A stretch of 64,000 nucleotides of DNA from the human T2T-CHM13v2.0 reference genome, Homo sapiens, in NCBI RefSeq assembly GCF_009914755.1, contig NC_060926.1, one strand, 5' to 3'. Position numbers and translations under genes: made by a program. Each line of letters opens with the position of its first letter. The first letter of the stretch is position 1. The notes under the pieces are model-generated. The model saw only the letters and a list, made by a program, of their open reading frames with translations, had not been told where the DNA came from and made no database searches. This document shows positions 18,911-64,000 of the stretch, piece after piece.

Positions 18911-21522
18911 ATGGTGATGATGATGATAAATGATAGAGGATAATAATGATGGCAGCTACTTTGGAGTTGGTTGTAATCTAGGGCCAGAGCCCAGTAAGAT
19001 TACAATCCCTATATTTACAGTGACTCTAGTTTATTGTTTCTTAAAGAGGGATAATTCAAGGCAGATGTCTACCTTGAGTGTTTTAGATTAAATCCAGGAC
19101 TGCAACTGGCCATAGATGGGAATCAGTAAAGACCCACCAGTTTTGACTGTAAAAATTGAACTGATTTTAATTTTCATTGCCCAAGTCAGATATGTGTTCA
19201 AATCAGGTTTAGAAACTCCATTTAAAATACTTCATACATGTAAAGCCTCATTCCAGGCATTATAAATATAAACTAAAACAACAGCTATTGACTTTGAAGA
19301 GATTCTGCCTAGATCAACAAACTAAAACTTACAAGGAGGTGTTTTCAATTGTTCCACATGAGAACACTTAAAGGTTAGAAATGATAAACAGTTCGACTTT
19401 GAATATGAGAAAAATCCAAACAGCCAATAAAAATTTGAATTTGCTTTTACAAACTAATAAAATATGTTAGGAATTTGTGATATTTGCCATTTCTAGTGCT
19501 GGCTATTCAAACTGTGAGTTTGACCTCCTTGACTCAACCAGTTTCAACTTCTTGACATCTTCCATTATTTAAAATACACTGAGCACATTTTTCATCCATA
19601 AAAAATTATCTTAGAAAATAAAAATCATTGATTTGTTCCTTAAATACATTCTGATCTTCTTTTCTTTGTGGAATTATTATTCCAAATGGTTTTAATAATG
19701 TGGAAGATGCATGTAACGCTCAATCCTAGGAGAATTTTGAGTATCGGTATTGAGACTGGCGGATGGAGTCAAACACAGCCTGACAACACGGAAAGAGAAA
19801 AGAAGTTACAACCTGAAGCTTCTGGAATATTAAGCATATTTTCATCTTATTTGGAATGAAATATAAGCCTAGCTCTTCTATTAGATAAATTTGCCTCCTT
19901 AATCCTTGTAGCTTTCATATGATACCGAAATTTAATTTAAAATTATAATGGCAGAATTTTATTGGCCATTTCAAAGCAATCTCAAATTAGTTCCCTTAAA
20001 CCACAATAGAACTTCAAGAACACTTATCCTTAAACACCTTACTATTCTATCCTTTGATACCAATAGTGTAATCACCCAATTATCCAATATCATAGTATTA
20101 TCTAATGACAGCCATCTCTGAAGGTTTTGGTATTCTTCACAAATCTGTTACTATGAACTACCTCAGACTTAGGAACAAATTGTTTCATCCCATCTGGCAT
20201 TGTTTTCCTTTACTGCAGAAAAAAATACAATTAACCTCATTCGTATTGTTTTACCTGTAATGTTAAAAGCATTCTACATATTATAATTCCAAAACATGTG
20301 CTTAATTACTTAATTAGAGACTTGAGAACTGCAGTAGTTAGTTAACAGGAAGGCAAAGAGAGAAAAAAGCATGAGAAGATGAGAAGGTTCAGTGAAATAT
20401 TCCCACACTTGTGTGAAATTATTTTGCATTATCTTTTTTTGTCAAGTAGTTTACTTACATGAGAGAGAAATGAGAATTTGACTGTAGTTAAAGTAGGAAT
20501 AAAAAAACTCCACCACTACTAGAATTTTAAAGCATGTGTAAATGACTTGTGGTTTATCTGACATGATACCAGGTAAGATGTCTGGCCCTCCAGCCTTGTA
20601 GAAGGCAAGTTTCAAAGGTAGGATTTCAAAAGGGAATGATAATTCAACAAGGAAATACAAAACAGTGTTTACAATTAGGTAAAGTTTTTTTTTTGGTAGT
20701 TTTTTTTGTATTATTATGAAGCTTGTAAGTAAATATTACTCTGTTCAGGACATATGGAGACACTTGCCACTCTGCACATGCTCAGAGCAACAAAGAATCA
20801 GTGTTACCTGGAGTTTATAGGAGATTCAGGCTCTTCAACACCACTTAGAATTACTCAAGCCCACATTTTAATAAGCTAATTAGTTTACATATTAACAATT
20901 AAGAGCACTTGAGTGAACTTTGTATCTCCTTCCCAATTTATTTGTTTTTGGATTAAGATGTCACACATATTGCAAAATGATTAAATAATTAACATTCCAG
21001 CACTACAGCATAACATTTATGACATTTATTTTTCTTGCTAATAAGGAGCTCTCCTTACTATCCCAAACCAAACAAACTCATTTGTTTTATTTCACTGTAG
21101 AAGAGAAGAAATGAAATGGAATAAAATCACTAAGTTGAGTGTTCATAAGCTAGATACTTCACAGTAAATGAAAAAGTATAACATCAAAGGGAAAAATATA
21201 AATTTTCATTTAAATTAACTCATTTATTTGTTTGTTTATTCAGAATGTTCTTAAATTTCGTATTATCTTTTTGGATATTTTTTTCTCTTCATATGAATTT
21301 TTTAGTAAATCTTTTAGCACAGGTTTGAGTCACATGTCCTCATGCTTTATTTTTCAAAAGAATTACTAACATTCTTGAATGATAGTTTACGTGGATATAT
21401 TTTCTGAATCAGTTTAAGAATATGTTCCCATTATCTATCAAATGCTTTGGAGTTATTGAAAGAGCAATTTAGTTATTCTTCCCTTTGGGGAAACATATCT
21501 TTCCTCTTTAAAAAAAAGTTTT

Positions 21523-21782
21523 AGCTAGGCACTGTGTCTCAGGCCTGTAATCTCAGCAATTTAGGAGTCCAAGGCAGGCAGATCACTTGAGGTCAGGAGT
21601 TCAAGATCAGCCTGGCCAACATGGAGACACCCTTTCTCTACTAAAATTACAAAAATTAGCCAGGCGTGGTGGCTCTTGCCTGCAATCCTAGCTACTCAGC
21701 AGGCTGAGGCAGGAGAATCGCTTGAACCCAGGAGGTGGGGGTTGCAGGAAGGTCATGCCACTTTACTCCAGCCTGGGTGACA
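21523..21782 (+). mobile_element. AluS lacking its 3' end, tail and right TSD
   Basis: Alu sequence stops at CCTGGGTGACA and runs straight into unique DNA. Confidence 0.93.
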
Positions 21783-22423
21783 TTTGGGATGAGCTTATCC
21801 TGTTCCCCTCCTCTCCAGACCTGCAAGAGAATGCACCATCACTGTATATAAGCACACAGCTAAAAATACCACAAGGCAAATATACACACACCATATCAGA
21901 AAAATGAATAAAGCAGGTAGATGAGATCTACTGAAGACATCATTGGAGAAAACAAATCACTCTTAATGTTTGCATAACTACTCAGTTCTTCCATTGAGCT
22001 TTAATCATTTAAAGATGCACATTCTAAAAAGAAAAAACACATTAGCAGATAGTAGTAATGAATGACCTGACAAAAGAGGTGACCAATATTGAAAGAATGA
22101 CATGATAAAATCAAAGACCCACACAAGAGTGTGTGCAAAATATGAACTATAAGAGGAATAACCTAGACAGGTCCAGATTATAGAACATGTTTTCTGGCTA
22201 AATATTAAAGCAAGTAAACAAACATTAAAGGGTTAATATCAATTATAAATAACATGTTATAGATTTCAGTGCTGTAGATTTATAGATTACAATTTGTTGA
22301 TCAACAGTATATAAAATAAATTTAATTTACTTAAAGTATTTTTTGTTTATCAATTCTTCAGTTGAAAAAAAATCCCCAATAATGTTTTAGATATATGTAT
22401 GTGTGTGGGGGGGTTTGTGCATG
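21779..22423 (+). repeat. Unique-sequence segment duplicated in inverted orientation at 55566-56202
   Basis: Reverse-complement match by eye, about 9 mismatches in the first ~190 bp. ORFs 21722..21907 and 56074..56295 share ILFPSSPDLQEN.PSLYISTQLKIPQGKYTH.ISEK. Confidence 0.97.
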
Positions 22424-23797
22424 CCCATGCATGCACAGGTGCATGTGTGTATGCAGGTGAGTGTGTGTGGGGGGGTGGTCTGTGCAAACCATACCTTTTT
22501 CAGCAAAGATAATAGTGAATAAAGGGAACATCAGTTTATATCAAATATTTCAATGTGTTATCTTGTCAGGGCTTATTATATCTTGTCCTTAGGCATGTTA
22601 CGTTCTGTAGTCACTAGGTTTAAGTCATGACATCCATATTTAGCAAATATGTGCATGCCATAATAAAGATGTTCAGTGAACCTAAGAGTAACATACAGTA
22701 GGAGCAGTTGGTAAGGAATGGAGAAGAAAATTTATCATTCAAACTTGAGCAACAAAATTCTGAGACATCGGTGAAAATTAAACTAAACTGTTAGTACAAT
22801 GCAGAAAGTTTTTAACTAAGATCTCTGCATAAAGTATCTATACTTAGATTAATATAAATTGGAAAATTATTTAACAAAGAGAGATATAAAACTGTAATTT
22901 TCTCTTAAAGATCACCTTTAACTGTTAGATAAATATCACCTCTGTCACAAGAAGCAGATGAGTTTTCAAACTGATGAGGTATCAAGGAATTTGCAAATTT
23001 AAGAGAAGAAAGGTGCGATGTAATTGTCAACCTTAGTTAATGGAAAGCTACTACTTTTCTAGGCAGCAGCCTTAACACTGTGTTCTGTTATTAATGGTAG
23101 AAAAGGGCCTTCGTATGTATTTTATTATTGAAGAACTACAGAAAACATAGACCTTAATTATTCAGCAGCCTTAGGGGCAACCTACAATGTTAAGATAAAA
23201 GTAAACTTCTATCCACTGCAAGCCTGAATCCAGCAAAATGAGGGAACAAATCATATCTTTATTTCATTTGTATGTTGCAAAATGTGCCTGGGAAAGGATC
23301 TAAGAAAGAGCATTATAGTCAGAACCTTGCTGTAGGGTGATTTTCAATGAAGGAACAAATTAGACTTTAATGTATCACATGACATTGTACTAAGGCTTAA
23401 AAGTTAGAGTGCCACTTAGGACTTGATTCCCTCACTGGGTCTATCCCAAGGGAATTTGTTAAAACAGGTTCCGAATAGGAATCAATGTAAGGTACATATG
23501 AGCCAATCTTGCCTCAAGAATCCTAACAGACAGAACATTTCCAATTATTATCTTTTTTCATTTCTTCAGCATAAGGAAGTCAATTTGTGAGATTACCAGG
23601 ACAGAAAATGGTGATTCTACTATAGAACATTTGCAATAAAGATAGACCTCCGTAGGCACTTGAATGCCTAGAATTTGGTTTCTTCTCAAGCCACAATGTA
23701 CAGATGTAGTTAACGTGATAGTTAACATGACCTGAAAATCAGAGAAACTGACTTTTATTCCCTATTTGTTACTGGATACATATGTGGCTTTGGGCCA

Positions 23798-52133: not shown

Positions 52134-55100
52134 GGAGGGACCAATATGGCCAAGTAGGAACAGCTCCAGTCTGCAGCTCCCAGTGAGGCCAATGCAGAAG
52201 GCGGGTGATTTCTGCATTTCCAACTGAGGTACCTGATTCATCTCAATGGGACTGGTTAGGCAGTGGGTGCAACCCACAGAGAGTGAGCAGAAGCAGGGTG
52301 GGTGTTGCTTCACCTGTGAAGTGCAAGGAGCTGTAGGACCTCCCTCCCCCAGCCAAGGGAAGATGTGAGGGACTGTGCTACCCGGCCTGGGTACCATGCT
52401 TTTCCCACAGTTTTGCAATCCGCAGATTAGGAGATTCCCTCATGTGCCTACACTACCAAGGCCCTGGGTTTCAAGCACAAAAGTGGGTGGCTGTTTGGGC
52501 AGACACCGAACTAGCTGCATGAGTTTTTTTTTGGTACCCCAGTGGTACCTGGAACCCCAGCGAGACAGAACCGTTCACTCCCCTGGAAAGGGGACTGAAG
52601 CCAGGGAGCCAAGTAGTTTTCGTTCAGTGGGTCCCACTCCCATGGAGCCCAGCAAGCTAAGAACCGCTGGCTGGAAAATCTCACTGCCAGCACAGCAATG
52701 TGAAGTCAACCAGAGATAATCAAGCTTGGTGGGTGGAGGGACATCTGCCATTACTGAGGCTTTAGTAGGTAGTTTTCTCCTGACGGTGCTAAGGGGGCTA
52801 GGAGGTTTGGACTGGGTGGAATTCATCACAGTGTGGCAAAGCAGCTGTGGCCAGACTGCTTCTCTAGATTCCTCCTCACTGGGCAGGGTATTTCTGAAGG
52901 AAAGACAGCAGCCCCAGTAATGGGCTTACAGATAAAACTCTCATCTCACTGGGACAGAGCACCGGGGGGAAGGGGCAGATGTGGGCACAGCTTCAACGCA
53001 TTTAATCTTTCCTGCCTGCTGGCTCTGAAGAGTGCAGCTGATCCGGACAAGCAGGATTCTGCCAGCACAGCACACAAGCTCTGCTAAGGGACAAACTGCC
53101 TCCTCAAGTGGGTCCCTGATCCCTGTGCCTCCTAACTGGGAGAGAACTCCCAAAAGGGGTGGACAGACACATCATACAGGACAGCATCAGCTGGCATCAC
53201 TCTGGTGGCCCTCTAGGGTGAAGCTTTCAGAGAAAGGAGCAGTTAGTAATCTTTGCAGCCTCCAGCAAACTGCAGCAGACCTGCAGAAGAGGAGTCTGTT
53301 TGGTAGAAGAAAAACTGACATACAGAAAGGAGCAACATCAGCATCAGCAAAAAGAGATTCCCACACAAAAACCTCAAACAAAGATCATCAGCCTCAAAGA
53401 TCAAAGGTAGATAAATCCACGAAGATGAGGAATAACCAGTGAAAAAGTGCTGAAAATTCCAAAAAACAGACTGCCTCTTCTCCTCCAAATGATCGCAACT
53501 CCTCTCCAGCAAGGGCACAAAACTGGAGGGAGAATGAGATTGACAAATTGACAGAAGTAGGCTTCAGAAGGTGGGCAATAACAAACTCCTCTGAGCTAAA
53601 GGAGCATGTTCTAACCCAATGCAAGGAAGTTAAGAACCTTGATAAAAGGCTAGAGGACCTACTAACTAGAATAACCAGTTTAGAGAAGAACATAAATGAC
53701 CTGATGTAGCTGAAAAACACAGCACGAGAACTTCGTGAAGCATACACAAGTATTAACAGCCAAATCGATCAAGTGGAAGAAAGGATGTCAGGGATTGAAG
53801 ATCATCTTACTGAAATAAGGCATGAAGACAAGATTAGAGAAAAAAGAATGAAAAGGAATGAACAAAGCCTCCCGGAAATATAAGACTATGTGAAAAGACC
53901 AAACCTGCAATTGATTGGTGTACCCGAAAGTGATGGGGAGAATGGAACCAAATTGGAAAACACACTTTAGGATATTATCCAAGAGAACTTCCCAACCTAG
54001 CAAGACAGGCTAACATTCAAATTCAGGAAATACAGAGAAAACCACTAAGATACTCCTTGAGAAGAGCAACCCCAACTCATATAATTGTCAGATTCTCCAA
54101 GGTTGAAATGAAGGAAAAATGTTAAGGACAGCCATAGAGAAAGGTTAGGTTACCTACAAAGGGAAGCCCATCAGACTAACAGTAGATCTCTCTGCAGAAA
54201 CCTTACAAGCCAGAAGAGAGAGGGAGTCAATATTCAACATTCTTAAAGAAAAGAATTTTCGACCTAGAATTTCATATCCAGCCAAACTAAGCTTTATGAG
54301 TAAAGGAGAAATAAAATCATTTACAGACAAGTAAATGCTGAGAGATTTTGTCACCACCAGGCCTGCCTTACAAGGGCTCCTGAAGGAAGCACTAAATATG
54401 TAAAGGAAAAAACAGTACTAGCTACTGCATAAACACACCAAAATATGAAGACCAATGACACTATGAAGAAACTGCATCAACTAATGTGCAAAATAAGCAG
54501 CTAGCATCGTAATGACAGGATCAAATTTACACATAACAATATTAACCTCAAATGTAAATGGGCTAAATCCTCCCAATTAAAAGACACAGACTGACAAATT
54601 GGGTAAAGAGTCAAGACCCATGGGTGTGCTGTGTTTAGGAAACGCATCTTACATGCGAAAACACACACAGGCTCAAAATAAAGGGATGGAGGAATATCCA
54701 CCAAGCAAAAGGAAAGCATAAAAAGCAGGAGTTGCAATCCTAATCTTTGATAAAACAGACTTTCAACCAACAAAGATCAAAAAAGACAAAGAAGGGCATT
54801 ATATAATGGTAAAGGAATCAATGCAACAAGAGGAGCTAACTATCCTAAATATATATGCACCCAGTACAGGAGCATCCAGATTCATAAAACAAGTTCTTAG
54901 AGACCTACAAAGAGACTTAGACTCCCACACAGTAGTAGTGGAGACTTTAATACCTTACTGTCAACATTAGATGGATCAATGAGACAGAAAATTAACGAGG
55001 ATATTCAGGACTCAAACTTAGCTCTGGACCAAGCAGACCTAACAGACATCTACAGAACTCTGTACCCCAAATCAACAGAATATACATTCTTCTCAGCACC

Positions 55101-55242
55101 ACATAGCACTTATTCTAAAATTGACCACATAATTGGAAGTAAAACACTCCTCAGAAAATGCAAAAGAATGGAAATCATAACAAACTGTCTCTCAGACCAC
55201 AGTGCAATCAAATTAGAACTCAGGATTAAGAAACTCACTCAA

Positions 55243-55538
55243 GGTCAGGCGTGGTGGTTCACACCTGTAATCCCAGCACTTTGGGAGGCCAAGGTAGGTG
55301 GATGACGAGGTCAGGAGATTGAGACCATCCTGGCTAACATGGTGAAACCCCGTCTCTACTAAAAATACAAAAAATTAGCTGGGCGTGGTGGTGGGTGCCT
55401 GTAGTCCCAGCTACTTGGGAGGCTGAGGCAGGAGAATGGTGTGAACCCTGGGAGGTGGATCTTGCAGTGAGCTGACATCATGCCACTGCACTCCAGCTTG
55501 GTTGACAGAGCAAGACTCTGTCTCAAAAAAAAAAAAAA
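55243..55538 (+). mobile_element. AluY (left member of the cassette)
   Basis: ACCATCCTGGCTAACA, GGAGAATGG and an A14 tail. Preceded by AAGAAACTCACTCAA (55228-55242). Confidence 0.96.
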
Positions 55539-56602
55539 TGTATATAACTAGAAAGAGCCCAGTTTCATGCACAAACCCACACACACATACATATATCTAA
55601 AATATTACTGGGGATTTTTTTCAACTGAAGAACTGATAAAAAATACTTTAAGTAAATTAAATGTATTTTGTATACTGTTGATCAACAAATTGTAATCTAT
55701 AAATCTATAGCACTGAAGTCTATAACATGTTATTTATAATGATATTAACCCTTTAATGTTTGTTTACTGGCTTTAATATCTAGCCAGTAAACATGTTCTA
55801 TATTCTGGACCAGTCTAGGTTATTCCTCTTATAGTTCATATTTTGCAGACACTCTTGTGTGAGTCTTTAATTTTATTGTGTCATTCTTTCAATATTGTTC
55901 ACCTCTTTTGTTAGGTCATTCATTACTACTATCTGCTAATGTGTTTTTTCTTTTTAGAATGTGCATCTTTAAATGATTAAAGCTCAATGGAAGATCTAAG
56001 GAGTTATGTGAACATTAAGAGTGATTTGTTTTCTCCAATGATGTCTTCAATAGATCTCACCTACCTGCTTTATTCATTTTTCTGATATGATGTGTGTATA
56101 TTTGCCTTGGGGTATTTTTAGCTGTGTGCTTATATATAGTGATGGTGTATTCTCTTGCAGGTCTGGAGAGGAGGGGAACAGGATAGGGTCATTCCAAATG
56201 TCTTTTAATGGAAACAATCTCTTACACCGTTCAAGAATGAAATCAAAGGTGCAAAGCAACACAGCACATCCTCTATCCTCATTGTCCTTCTTCAACTAAT
56301 CTCAATATAAGCAGGCACCAAACATAGTAAACAGCATTGCTTTTAATTAGTAGTTTCTAGGGTGCAAAACAGTTAGGATACAAGTATAACTGGTAGACTT
56401 GTACTATTTCTGAGCTTCTAATGACTGTAACATGACAATTTTAACTAATATGGGATTCTTTGGAAAAAGAGGCAATAGGATAACCTGAAATAATCAAATT
56501 AATGTGTTTACAATGAGTATATATAAGTAAAACACTATAAAATAGACATATTTATAAAATAACATATTTATGAAAATAATGTAATAGACATCCAGATACT
56601 TT
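55539..56602 (-). other. Captured non-repeat genomic DNA (inverted copy of 21779-22423 plus ~400 bp not seen elsewhere in the window)
   Basis: 55566-56202 is the reverse complement of 21779-22423. 55539-55565 is a 27-bp filler. I found no counterpart for 56203-56602. Confidence 0.93.
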
Positions 56603-56891
56603 CGGTGGCTCAAGCCTGTAATCCCAGCACTTTGGAAGGCCAAGGCAGGCAGATCACGAGGTCAGGAGATTGAGACCATCCTGGCTAACACGGTGAAACC
56701 CCATCTCTACTAAAAATACAAAAAATTAGCCAGGCTTGGTGGTGGGTGCCTGTAGTCCCAGCTACTCTGGAGGCTGAGGCAGGAGAATGTCATGAACCCA
56801 GGAGGTGGAGCTTGCAGTGAGCCAAGATTGCACCACTGCACTCCAGCCTGGGTGATAGAGTGAGACTCTGTCTCAAAAAAAAAAAAAAAAA
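56603..56891 (+). mobile_element. AluY (right member of the cassette), lacking the first ~9 nt
   Basis: Starts CGGTGGCTC, has Y diagnostics, and its A-tail is followed by AAGAAACTCACTGAA (56892-56906). Confidence 0.96.
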
Positions 56892-58354
56892 AAGAAACTC
56901 ACTGAAAGCCACACAGCTACATGGAAACTGAACCACCTGCTCCTGAGTGACTACAGGGTAAATAACGAAATTAAGGCAGAAATAAAGAAGTTTTTTGAAA
57001 CCGATGAGAACAAAGACACCACTTACCAGAATCTCTACGACACAGCTAAAGCAATGTTAAGAGGAAAATTTATAGCCATAAATGCCCACATCAGAAAGCT
57101 TGAAAGATCTGAAATCAATACCCGAACATCACAATTAAAAGAACTGGAGAAGCAAGAGCAAACAAATTCAAAAGCTAGAAGACTACAAGAAGTAACTAAG
57201 ATCAGAGCAGAACTGAAGGAGATGGAGACACAAAAAATCCTTCAAAATATCAGTGAATCCAGAATCCGGTTTTTCGGAAAGATTAACAAACTAGATAGAC
57301 CACTAGCTAGACTAATAAAGAAGAAAAGAGCATAGAATTAAAACACAATAAAAAGTGATAAAGAGGAGATCACCACTAATCCCACAGAAATACAAACTAC
57401 CATCAGAGAATAATATAAACACCTTTATCAAATAAACTAGAAAATCTAGAAGAAATAGGTAAATTCCTGAATACATACACTCTCCCAAGTCAAATCCCCA
57501 AATAGATCAATAACAAGTTTTGAAATTGAGGCAGTAATTAATATCCTACCAACCAAAAAAAAAAAAAAAAAAAAAAAACCCAGGACCAGACGGATTCAAT
57601 TGAATTCTCCCAGACGGATTCACAGTCGAATTCACCAGACATACAAAAAGGAGCAGGTACCATTCCTTCTAAAACTATTCCAAACAATAAAAAAAAAAGA
57701 CTTCTCTCTAACTCATTTTATGAGGCCAGCATCATCCTGATACCAAAATCTGGCAGAAACACAACACAACAAAAAAAAGAAAATTGCAAAAATACTCAAT
57801 AAAATACTGGTACACCAAATCCAGCAGTATATCAAAAAGCTTATCCACCACAATCAAGTCAGCTTCATCCCTGATTCAACATATGCAAATCAATAAACAT
57901 AATCCATCACATAAACAGTACCAATGACAAAAACCATATGATTATCTCAATAAATGCAGAAAAGGCCTTCGATAAAATTTAACAGCCCTTCATGCTGAAA
58001 ACTTTCAATAAACTAGGTATTGATGGAATGTATCTCAAAATAATAAGACCTATTTATGACAAATTCATAGCCAATATCATAATGAACGGGCAAAACCTAG
58101 AAGCATTCCCTTTGAAAACTAGCACAAGACAAGGATGGCCTCTCTCACCACTCCTATTCAACATAGTATTGGAAGTTCTGGCCAGGGCAATCAGGCAAGA
58201 GAAAGAAATAAAGGATATCCAAATAGGAAGAGAGGAAGTCAAATTGTCTGTTTGTAGATGACATGACTGTATATTTAGAAAGCCCCATCATCTCAGCCCA
58301 AAACCTCCTTAAGCAGATAAGCAACTTCAGATAATCTATTTTTAAAAAATATTT

Positions 58355-62319: not shown

Positions 62320-64000
<1,681 letters not shown>

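What the first reader, a model, noticed from the sequence alone, without database searches (positions are those of the whole stretch)
55228..56906. AluY - 1.06 kb captured local DNA - AluY cassette inside one target-site duplication
Seen: L1 ORF2 is interrupted by two same-orientation AluY copies bracketing 1064 bp of non-repeat DNA. Only one TSD is visible, AAGAAACTCACTCAA (55228-55242) / AAGAAACTCACTGAA (56892-56906), at an L1-endonuclease-type site (TT|AAGA). L1 resumes colinearly afterwards. 637 bp of the cargo is an inverted copy of 21779-22423, about 95% identical over the first ~190 bp I compared. Known: Alu normally moves only its own Pol III transcript. Inference, three models: (a) RT template switching from Alu RNA to nearby DNA or RNA during integration; (b) the right Alu plus cargo inserted into the A-tail of the left Alu, hiding its TSD in poly-A; (c) retrotransposition of a minus-strand Pol II transcript from the donor locus, primed at the tail of an embedded Alu. 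Each amounts to Alu-associated local duplication of unique DNA.
Basis: partly seen in the sequence, partly recalled or inferred. Interest (0 to 1): 0.8.

Follow-up and report, generated by a model that had tools for sequence, protein, structure and literature searches.

The report
Composite Alu-cargo-Alu insert in L1
An old L1 on human chromosome 2 holds, inside one target-site duplication, two AluY copies around 1 kb of DNA stitched together from two nearby places, which is a fossil of either a replication-repair accident or a multi-template retrotransposition.

Summary
One L1 ORF2 is interrupted at a single 15-bp target-site duplication by AluY (full length, A14), 1064 bp of cargo, and a second AluY (from nt 10, A17). 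The cargo is not a dispersed repeat.

Three facts change the reading.
- The first 27-29 bp of cargo are not orphan. They are the 3' TSD remnant plus 21 nt of native flank of another AluY ("AluSrc") 127 kb upstream on the same strand. So the left Alu came together with its source's trailer.
- Next come 637 bp (K2P 0.056) copied in inverted orientation from 33 kb upstream. At that locus the homology stops at a 4-bp microhomology junction inside a 3'-truncated AluS.
- The last 400 bp have no long match elsewhere in the genome.

Both identified templates lie within 130 kb, in mixed orientation, with 0-4 bp microhomology. I therefore favour (0.45) DNA-level iterative template switching anchored on a young resident AluY. 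The main rival (0.25) is one-step TPRT with RT template jumps. It is supported because the left segment spans Alu nt 1 to the first T-run and both inner junctions follow TTT. Primate orthologues would decide.

The parts
53259..55227 (+). Host L1 (ORF2 region), part left of the insert
   Evidence: Aligns to 10 genomic L1 copies. It is 5-7% from their majority sequence.
55228..55242 (+). Left copy of the 15-bp target-site duplication, AAGAAACTCACTCAA, at a TT/AAGA site
55243..55524 (+). Left AluY ('AluL'), full length from nt 1
   Evidence: Carries all Y-diagnostic states of a data-derived consensus. Non-CpG changes are 7/229 (6/227 after re-marking one site as CpG) and CpG changes 18/46. Rfam SRP-type hits fall only in the Alus.
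55525..55538 (+). A14 tail of the left Alu
55539..55567 (+). Trailer. 55541-55546 (TATATA) matches the last 6 nt of the 3' TSD of AluSrc. 55547-55567 matches 21 nt of AluSrc's native 3' flank exactly. The copy ends at the first T-run downstream of that Alu. 55566-55567 (CA) is shared with the next segment.
   Evidence: A genome pattern search with up to 3 mismatches found only 2 places and 0 in the control. Alignment to L036:1524-1550 gives 26/27, and AluSrc's own TSD AAAGAATATAGA is seen on both sides of AluSrc. AluSrc is G000:C2:123556396-123556677, 126,847 bp upstream of AluL and outside the window.
55566..56202 (+). 637-bp segment copied in inverted orientation from 21779-22423
56203..56602 (+). 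400-bp orphan segment, contiguous with the 637 bp. It ends in ...ACTTT directly before Alu nt 10.
   Evidence: Matches only itself in the genome at E<=10. There is no exact match of 14 nt or more elsewhere in the window or in L036. Its last 30 nt are unique at up to 3 mismatches. Caveat: the genome DNA search misses matches of about 35 nt or less (control).
56603..56874 (+). Right AluY ('AluR'), lacking nt 1-9
   Evidence: Y-diagnostic along its whole length. Non-CpG changes are 5/227 (3/225) and CpG changes 19/44.
56875..56891 (+). A17 tail of the right Alu, abutting the TSD
56892..56906 (+). Right copy of the TSD, AAGAAACTCACTGAA. The G is a later change, because 7 of 8 L1 references read C there.
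56907..58330 (+). Host L1, continuing colinearly
21779..22423 (-). Partner of the 637-bp segment (645 bp), lying in DNA that is otherwise unique in the genome
   Evidence: The flanks 20300-21526 and 22424-23600 match only themselves.
21527..21782 (+). AluS truncated at its 3' end (no last ~17 nt, no A-tail, no 3' TSD). It is joined to the partner copy through a 4-bp microhomology (GACA/TGTC).
   Evidence: The 5'-flank motif was not found again downstream.
22395..22480 (+). CA/G-rich microsatellite-like stretch with an internal direct repeat. The homology ends here, at 22423.
   Evidence: read by eye.

Best explanation
What is shown:
- One L1-endonuclease-type insertion site in an L1 carries the whole 1.65-kb cassette.
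- The cassette is a mosaic. Its parts, in order, are: AluY, A14, a remnant of the 3' TSD and 21 nt of flank of an AluY lying 127 kb upstream in direct orientation, 637 bp from 33 kb upstream in inverted orientation, 400 bp of unknown source, AluY from nt 10, A17.

What is inferred:
1. An AluY first inserted into the L1 by ordinary target-primed reverse transcription. This made the TSD and the terminal A-tail.
2. Soon after, or while that insertion was being resolved, a broken or stalled replication end in this Alu or its A-tail was repaired by break-induced, iterative template switching (FoSTeS/MMBIR type, Alu-assisted).
3. The end invaded the homologous AluY 127 kb upstream and copied through its tail, TSD and 21 nt of flank.
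4. It then switched, on a 2-nt CA overlap, to the opposite strand 33 kb upstream and copied about 1.04 kb.
5. It then returned to the resident Alu at nt 10 and re-copied it.

On this reading the two Alus are wholly or partly duplicates of one resident element around the templated insert.

The 400 bp were contiguous with the 637 bp at the donor. They were lost there by a deletion that joined the donor to the AluS through 4 bp of microhomology. That deletion happened either later or as a flanking change of the same event.

The cassette has no evident function. It is a fossil roughly 20-30 Myr old. That age uses my own rate assumption of about 1e-9 per site per year applied to K/2 = 0.028.
For: - Both identified templates are local, in mixed orientation: 126,847 bp upstream direct and 33,143 bp upstream inverted. 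For RNAs acting in trans the chances are about 8e-5 and 2e-5.
- The junctions have 0-4 bp of microhomology: CA at 55566-55567, blunt at 56602/56603, TGTC at the donor. This matches junctions reported for iterative template switching, which also carry templated insertions of 376, 815 and 13,357 bp, blunt ends, and small copy-number changes beside the inserted fragment and its source (Gu et al. 2016, PMC5120786, passages read).
- The donor is itself rearranged exactly at the end of the copied stretch.
- The ages agree. Non-CpG differences are L-R 9/225, L-AluSrc 12/227 and R-AluSrc 8/225, against 34/637 for cargo versus donor.
- A resident Alu explains why the copy starts at Alu nt 1 next to the TSD and ends with an A-tail plus TSD.
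Against: - There is no direct evidence that a single-Alu stage ever existed.
- AluL, AluR and AluSrc share no private non-CpG change. Shared CpG changes are at chance level: L-R 8 against 8.7 expected, L-AluSrc 6 against 5.4. So all three Alus must have been nearly unmutated at the event, which is a timing coincidence for a DNA model.
- The AluSrc-derived part ends 0-2 nt after the first T-run downstream of that Alu, and the cargo ends in TTT. By chance these have probabilities of about 0.11 and 0.05. An RNA reading predicts them. This model does not.
- There is no microhomology at the return junction.
- The 400 bp need an extra deletion or a lost template.
Confidence: 0.45

Rival explanations
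1. One-step chimeric retrotransposition, which is the reader's model (a) in its RNA version.
1. L1 ORF2p primes on the A-tail of an AluY RNA at the nicked L1 target and copies it to nt 10.
2. It jumps to the 3' end of a roughly 1.04-kb RNA from the minus strand of the locus 33 kb upstream.
3. At that RNA's 5' end it jumps to the 3' end of the Pol III primary transcript of AluSrc (Alu, A-tail, trailer).
4. It copies that transcript to nt 1, and the cDNA is joined at the left TSD.
For: - There is a single 15-bp TSD, an EN-type site and a terminal A-tail.
- The architecture equals known chimeras, with a full-length sense Pol III RNA at the 5' side and a 5'-truncated poly-A partner at the 3' side. 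452 Alu/L1 chimeras inside one TSD have been reported (Law & Burns 2026, PMC13174262; abstract, passages and section 12 read).
- The left segment runs from Alu nt 1 to the first T-run after the tail. That is where an Alu primary transcript with its unique 3' trailer would start and end (Conti et al. 2015, PMC4333407, passages read).
- Both inner junctions follow TTT, with a joint chance of about 0.006. This would fit acceptor RNAs with U-rich 3' ends.
- All three Alus being unmutated at the event is natural for active source RNAs.
Against: - Both acceptor templates come from within 130 kb of the target. The chance for trans-acting RNAs is about 2e-9 jointly, and I know of no mechanism for local RNA capture.
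- The T-run is T3, not a canonical T4 or longer.
- No gene or known RNA lies at the 33-kb donor (hub annotation; Rfam finds nothing in the cargo).
- The cargo has 13 runs of T4 or longer, so it is not a Pol III product.
- The donor's deletion must be an unrelated later event.
Confidence: 0.25
2. The two donors were once contiguous, in the order AluSrc, tail, flank, 637 bp, 400 bp, and perhaps an Alu. The cassette is one continuous copy of that stretch, made by gene conversion into a resident Alu or as a retrocopy. A later inversion of about 94 kb and a deletion then broke up the donor.
For: Undoing an inversion between G000:C2:123556750 and window position 22423 would place the 637 bp directly after AluSrc's flank, in the cassette's orientation. 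This follows from the geometry. The donor at 21779 is visibly rearranged.
Against: - It needs a fixed 94-kb inversion with a breakpoint inside a 1.4-kb stretch, plus a deletion.
- No inverted repeats are seen at the supposed breakpoints (by eye).
- The retrocopy version still has the locality problem, and its 5' end would fall exactly on Alu nt 1.
Confidence: 0.1
3. The direction of copying is the reverse. The 645-bp copy at 21779-22423 was made from the cassette, as a small local inverted duplication inserted at a break in the AluS tail. The roughly 1.04-kb cargo came from a source that is now lost.
For: - The 637 bp are internal to the longer contiguous cargo.
- The copy at 21.7 kb is bounded by a microhomology junction in a truncated AluS whose tail and 3' TSD are gone.
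Against: - Both flanks of the 21.7-kb copy are ordinary unique DNA.
- It needs one more rare event, and the loss of the whole source.
- The first cargo segment does have a local source with a clear direction, because AluSrc has its own TSD. That makes a local origin of the rest more likely.
Confidence: 0.1
4. An ordinary AluY insertion came first. A retrocopy of cargo plus right Alu then inserted into its A-tail, and its TSD is hidden in poly-A.
For: Same-sense insertions at A-rich tails and TSDs of earlier elements are very common. These are the CLIQUE clusters, with an inverted-to-direct Alu pair ratio of 0.38 (Cook et al. 2011, PMC3215922; abstract and section 7 read). Levy et al. 2010 report the same pattern (PMC2836564, passages read).
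Against: - The 27-29 nt right after the A14 belong to the flank of AluSrc. So the tail and the start of the 'second insert' are one copied unit.
- It can be rescued only by assuming that the donors were contiguous, as in the previous rival, together with a trans landing 33-127 kb from the source.
Confidence: 0.03
5. Assembly artefact.
For: None found.
Against: The copies differ by 5% and every junction reads cleanly in one contig. Long reads could not be checked here.
Confidence: 0.02

Closest known systems
Replication-based complex rearrangements with iterative template switching (FoSTeS/MMBIR, Alu/Alu-assisted). Example read: Gu et al. 2016, PMC5120786 (passages).
   Same: Templated segments of hundreds to thousands of bp. 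Templates in either orientation. Junctions blunt or with 1-5 bp of microhomology. Repeats at the junctions. Small changes beside the donor fragment.
   Different: This case is small (1.65 kb), old and fixed. It sits exactly within the boundaries of a retrotransposon insertion, so it mimics a single TPRT event. One template is an Alu together with its own TSD and flank.
Chimeric retrocopies made by L1 (U6/L1, Alu/L1). Law & Burns 2026, PMC13174262 (abstract, passages, section 12). The earlier bipartite and tripartite chimeras of Buzdin and colleagues are recalled, not read.
   Same: One TSD, an EN-type site and a terminal poly-A. All parts have the same sense. A full-length Pol III RNA lies at the 5' side and a 5'-truncated partner at the 3' side.
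   Different: The 3' partner is an Alu, not an L1. The middle part is 1 kb of unannotated unique DNA. The 5' Alu keeps its A-tail and a source-specific trailer. Both non-terminal templates are local, within 127 kb.
Alu primary transcripts with unique 3' trailers (Conti et al. 2015, PMC4333407, passages), and 3' transduction by L1/SVA (recalled).
   Same: The segment runs from Alu nt 1 through the tail into flanking DNA, up to a T-run.
   Different: The trailer is internal and not followed by a new poly-A. The T-run is only T3. Normal Alu daughters do not carry the trailer.
Tail-to-head retrotransposon clusters (CLIQUEs; Cook et al. 2011, PMC3215922, section 7).
   Same: Two same-sense Alus lie close together in an L1.
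   Different: Only one TSD is present. The sequence after the first tail is a copied flank, not a second insertion.

Membership tests
L1-mediated (TPRT) insertion | Target-site duplication of 7-20 bp bounding the insert, with colinear target sequence | tested here: met
   The TSD is 15 bp with 14/15 identical. The overlap is exactly 15 nt in 5 of 5 L1 references, and the target is single-copy in the 8 of 10 references where it was found.
L1-mediated (TPRT) insertion | Endonuclease-type target (TT/AAAA-like) and a 3'-terminal A-tail abutting the TSD | tested here: met
   The target is GGATT|AAGAAA, and A17 lies directly before the right TSD. That TT/AAGA is a commonly used variant is recalled, not tested.
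Chimeric retrocopy by RT template switching or RNA ligation | All parts lie inside one TSD in one transcriptional sense, with a full-length small RNA at the 5' side and a 5'-truncated poly-A RNA at the 3' side | tested here: met
   AluL runs from nt 1, AluR from nt 10 with a tail, and both are on the + strand.
Chimeric retrocopy by RT template switching or RNA ligation | Each part corresponds to a real RNA with its own ends | tested here: inconclusive
   The left part runs from Alu nt 1 to the first T-run, which is T3 and not canonical. For the middle 1.04 kb there is no known RNA, no Rfam hit and 13 internal T-runs of 4 or more. No expression data were available.
Chimeric retrocopy by RT template switching or RNA ligation | All parts arrive at the same time in species alignments | not testable with these tools
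   No primate genomes were on hand. The search tool states that G000 has no relatives.
FoSTeS/MMBIR-type complex insertion | Templated segments copied from other, usually nearby, loci, in either orientation | tested here: met
   One template lies 127 kb upstream in direct orientation and one 33 kb upstream in inverted orientation.
FoSTeS/MMBIR-type complex insertion | Junctions that are blunt or carry short microhomology | tested here: met
   CA (2 nt), blunt, and TGTC (4 nt, at the donor).
FoSTeS/MMBIR-type complex insertion | A pre-event allele (single resident Alu), with the recipient sequence duplicated around the insert | tested here: inconclusive
   AluL and AluR are no closer to each other (88.5%) than to unrelated AluYs in the window (87.3-88.6%), and they share no private non-CpG change. 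This is what is expected both for duplicates made soon after insertion and for independent copies.
   It is the TSD remnant and flank of AluSrc, and so goes with the Alu and its tail.
   There are 2 places for the cargo and 1 for the 400 bp. The caveat on short matches applies.

The most novel reading that the evidence does not exclude
The cassette was made in one retrotransposition event. In that event the L1 reverse transcriptase, after copying an Alu RNA, jumped onto RNAs made nearby on the same chromosome: an unannotated transcript from 33 kb away, and then the Pol III primary transcript, with trailer, of an AluY 127 kb away. This would mean that template jumping during TPRT prefers chromatin-bound local RNAs. 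It would also mean that the Alu/L1 machinery can duplicate local unique DNA, a route to small local duplications that has not been described.
Probability: 0.2. Interest if true: 0.8.

Novelty: new variant of a known kind. Interest (0 to 1): 0.5.

Why it matters
This locus has the full outward signature of a single retrotransposition: one TSD, an EN-type site and a terminal A-tail. Its inside, however, is a three-template mosaic drawn from the surrounding 130 kb.

If the DNA reading is right, replication-repair events seated in a fresh Alu can masquerade as chimeric retrocopies. Catalogues of 'chimeric insertions' and of Alu-mediated duplication should then check where the templates lie.

If the RNA reading is right, it is evidence for local RNA capture by the L1 reverse transcriptase.

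Either way, the Alu trailer gives a rare direct link between an Alu copy and its source locus. The case can be settled with existing primate T2T assemblies.

Tried and rejected
- Average-linkage clustering of 155 chr19 Alus did not separate subfamilies. I used six linked diagnostic columns instead. That gave 26 Y-type and 123 S-type elements, and 6 intermediates were dropped.
- Test for subfamily-mosaic Alus, as expected from homologous-recombination or circle-integration models: uninformative, because both Alus are Y-type along their whole length.
- Idea that the L1 left and right of the insert are different elements, or that the right side is hypermutated. The best genome hits are 93% for the left flank and 85% for the right flank. 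A 10-copy alignment, however, shows patchy divergence on both sides (5.1-9.4%), no step at the insert, and only a mild G>A excess of 23/79. Rejected as a boundary effect.
- Search for the missing 3' TSD of the truncated AluS found none nearby. Matches numbered 5 against 6.7 expected by chance.
- Reading the 400 bp as a mosaic of short local pieces. No exact match of 14 nt or more exists elsewhere in the window or in L036, and shuffled queries gave 0.7. The last 30 nt are unique in the genome. This could not be tested beyond the window. The genome DNA search misses short matches: a 65-nt control query did not recover two known partners.
- Pol III read-through of the whole cassette: rejected because the cargo has 13 runs of T4 or longer.
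- Splicing at the first inner junction. A GT follows in AluSrc's flank, but no AG precedes the acceptor side. This was read by eye. The two donors also lie on opposite strands.
- Coding or known-RNA content of the cargo: one 70-aa ORF and no Rfam hit outside the Alus.
- Literature searches turned up no description of an Alu trailer inside a composite insert. They were not exhaustive, so I claim no absence from print.
Full report
**What is there.**
The window is human T2T chr2:123,628,001-123,692,000.
- L1 ORF2 on the + strand
- AAGAAACTCACTCAA (55228-55242)
- a full-length Alu (55243-55524) with A14
- 1064 bp of cargo (55539-56602)
- an Alu that starts at nt 10 (56603-56874) with A17
- AAGAAACTCACTGAA (56892-56906)
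- L1 again

In 5 of 5 related L1 copies fetched from the genome, the left flank ends and the right flank begins with exactly 15 nt of overlap. The 15-mer is single-copy in the 8 of 10 L1 references where a motif search found it, and 7 of those 8 read C where the right copy has G. So this is a true TSD at a TT/AAGA site in one colinear L1.

**The Alus.**
I took 155 near-full-length Alus from 200 kb of chromosome 19 and derived Y-type (26 copies) and S-type (123 copies) majority sequences from six linked diagnostic columns. Six intermediates were dropped.
- Both cassette Alus are AluY along their whole length.
- Non-CpG changes are 7/229 for the left Alu and 5/227 for the right Alu. After re-marking one site as CpG they are 6/227 and 3/225.
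- About 40% of CpG positions are changed in each.
- The two Alus share no private non-CpG change. Shared CpG changes are at chance level, 8 against 8.7 expected.
- They are no more alike (88.5%) than either is to other AluYs in the window (87.3-88.6%).

**The cargo is a mosaic.**

(i) The 637-bp segment. 55566-56202 is an inverted copy of 21779-22423: 34 mismatches in 637 aligned positions, 8 gap positions, K2P 0.056, no CpG sites. It is the only non-repeat pair in a self-comparison of the window. The whole genome holds only these two places. Both flanks of the 21.7-kb copy are unique DNA.

(ii) The ends of the homology at the 21.7-kb locus. The homology stops exactly at an AluS that lacks its last ~17 nt, its tail and its 3' TSD. 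The joint has 4 bp of microhomology, TGTC. So that locus was rearranged at this point. At the other end the homology stops in a microsatellite-like stretch.

(iii) The 400-bp segment. 56203-56602 matches nothing else in the genome at E<=10. It has no exact match of 14 nt or more elsewhere in the window. Its last 30 nt are unique at up to 3 mismatches. A control showed that the genome DNA search misses matches of about 35 nt or less, so very short templated pieces from outside the window are not excluded.

(iv) The first 27 bp. This is the new point. A pattern search with the first 27 nt of the cargo found one other place in 3.1 Gb (none with the reversed control), on the same strand 127 kb upstream. 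There an AluY, which I call AluSrc (G000:C2:123556396-123556677), sits between its own TSD copies AAAGAATATAGA, with a tail of A22 plus (CAA)n. The cassette has, directly after the left Alu's A14, TATATA (against TATAGA, the end of AluSrc's 3' TSD) followed by 21 nt identical to AluSrc's native flank.

Because AluSrc has its own TSD, the direction is from the AluSrc locus to the cassette. The left Alu, its tail and the first 27-29 nt of cargo are therefore one copied unit. The copy ends 0-2 nt after the first T-run (TTT) downstream of AluSrc. The last two bases (CA) are shared with the start of the 637-bp segment.

- Model (b) needs the cargo to be an independent second insert starting right after the tail. 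That is contradicted.
- Model (c) needs one donor transcript. The cargo comes from at least two loci on opposite strands.
- Model (a), template switching, remains but needs at least three templates.
- A Pol III read-through of the whole cassette is excluded by 13 runs of T4 or longer in the cargo.

**RNA or DNA.**

For RNA:
- The outward hallmarks of TPRT are all present.
- The layout is that of known chimeric retrocopies, a full-length sense Pol III RNA at the 5' side and a 5'-truncated poly-A partner at the 3' side. 452 Alu/L1 chimeras within one TSD are reported (Law & Burns 2026).
- The left segment spans what an Alu primary transcript with its trailer would span (Conti et al. 2015).
- Both inner junctions follow TTT. 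The chance values are about 0.11 and 0.05.

Against RNA:
- Both acceptor templates lie within 130 kb of the target. For RNAs acting in trans the chances are about 8e-5 and 2e-5.
- The T-run is only T3.
- No RNA is known from the 33-kb donor (hub annotation).

For DNA-level iterative template switching:
- The templates are local and in mixed orientation.
- The junctions carry 0-4 bp of microhomology.
- The donor is rearranged at the edge of the copied stretch. Junction types, kilobase-scale templated insertions and small changes beside donor fragments are all reported for such events (Gu et al. 2016).
- A resident AluY at the site explains why the mosaic begins at Alu nt 1 beside the TSD and ends with tail plus TSD. 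The broken end invades AluSrc by Alu or A-tract homology, and synthesis finally resumes in the resident Alu at nt 10.

The cost of the DNA model:
- No single-Alu stage is seen.
- All three Alus must have been almost unmutated at the event.
- The T-run coincidences are then unexplained.

I put 0.45 on the DNA model, including a variant in which the break arose while the Alu insertion was being resolved. I put 0.25 on the one-step RNA model. The rest goes to a formerly contiguous donor with later inversion, a reversed direction for the 637 bp, model (b) and artefact.

**Age.**
The divergences agree with one burst:
- cargo versus donor, 5.3%
- AluL versus AluR, 4.0% non-CpG
- AluL versus AluSrc, 5.3% non-CpG
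- each Alu, 1.3-3.1% from the Y majority sequence

The host L1 is 5-9% from the majority of 10 relatives and so is older. With an assumed rate of about 1e-9 per site per year, which is my own assumption, the event is roughly 20-30 Myr old. Apes, and perhaps Old World monkeys, should therefore be informative.

**Verdict.**
The structure is real, not a chance pattern and not a dispersed repeat. It is a fossil without evident function. It belongs to known kinds, either a complex template-switching insertion or a chimeric retrocopy, but it is an unusual variant. It looks like a TPRT product from outside and is a local three-template mosaic inside, including an Alu copied together with its source's trailer. 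Primate orthologues of the three loci would settle the mechanism. They were not available here.

Noticed in passing
window 54743-55242 versus 56907-57560 (host L1): The best genome-wide L1 matches are 93% for the 500 bp left of the insert but only 85% for the 654 bp right of it. In a 10-copy alignment, divergence from the majority is patchy: 7.4, 5.1, 8.2, 9.4 and 5.8% in five stretches. G>A makes up 23 of 79 changes in 57007-57906. There is no sharp step at the insert. The cause of the patchiness is open.
   Followed up: partly
window 21514-21526 and 63461-63473: Two different old Alus, about 80% alike, at 21527 and 63477 have the same 12 nt (AAAGTTTTAGCT) directly at their 5' ends. The flanks further upstream do not align. 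This is either coincidence or a shared target motif.
   Followed up: partly
window 22395-22480: A G/CA-rich microsatellite-like stretch with an internal direct repeat (TGTGTGTGGGGGGGT..TGTGCA, twice, about 55 bp apart). It lies exactly where the homology to the cargo ends. It was seen by eye.
   Followed up: no
L036:1478-1520 (G000:C2:123556678-123556720): AluSrc's tail is A22 followed by (CAA)5, while the copy in the cassette has a plain A14. AluSrc also has fewer changed CpG positions (13/48) than AluL (20/48) or AluR (20/46). That would fit a less methylated source element but is not significant.
   Followed up: partly
window 55376-55427, 56727-56778, 56795-56854: Sub-threshold Rfam hits to mir-1268 and mir-3135 lie inside the two Alus. 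They are Alu-derived models, not separate genes.
   Followed up: no
window, whole: Only 11 Alu hits were found in 64 kb when the left Alu was used as the BLAST query, in a window with 36% G+C and no annotated gene (hub annotation). That is what a gene desert would look like.
   Followed up: no
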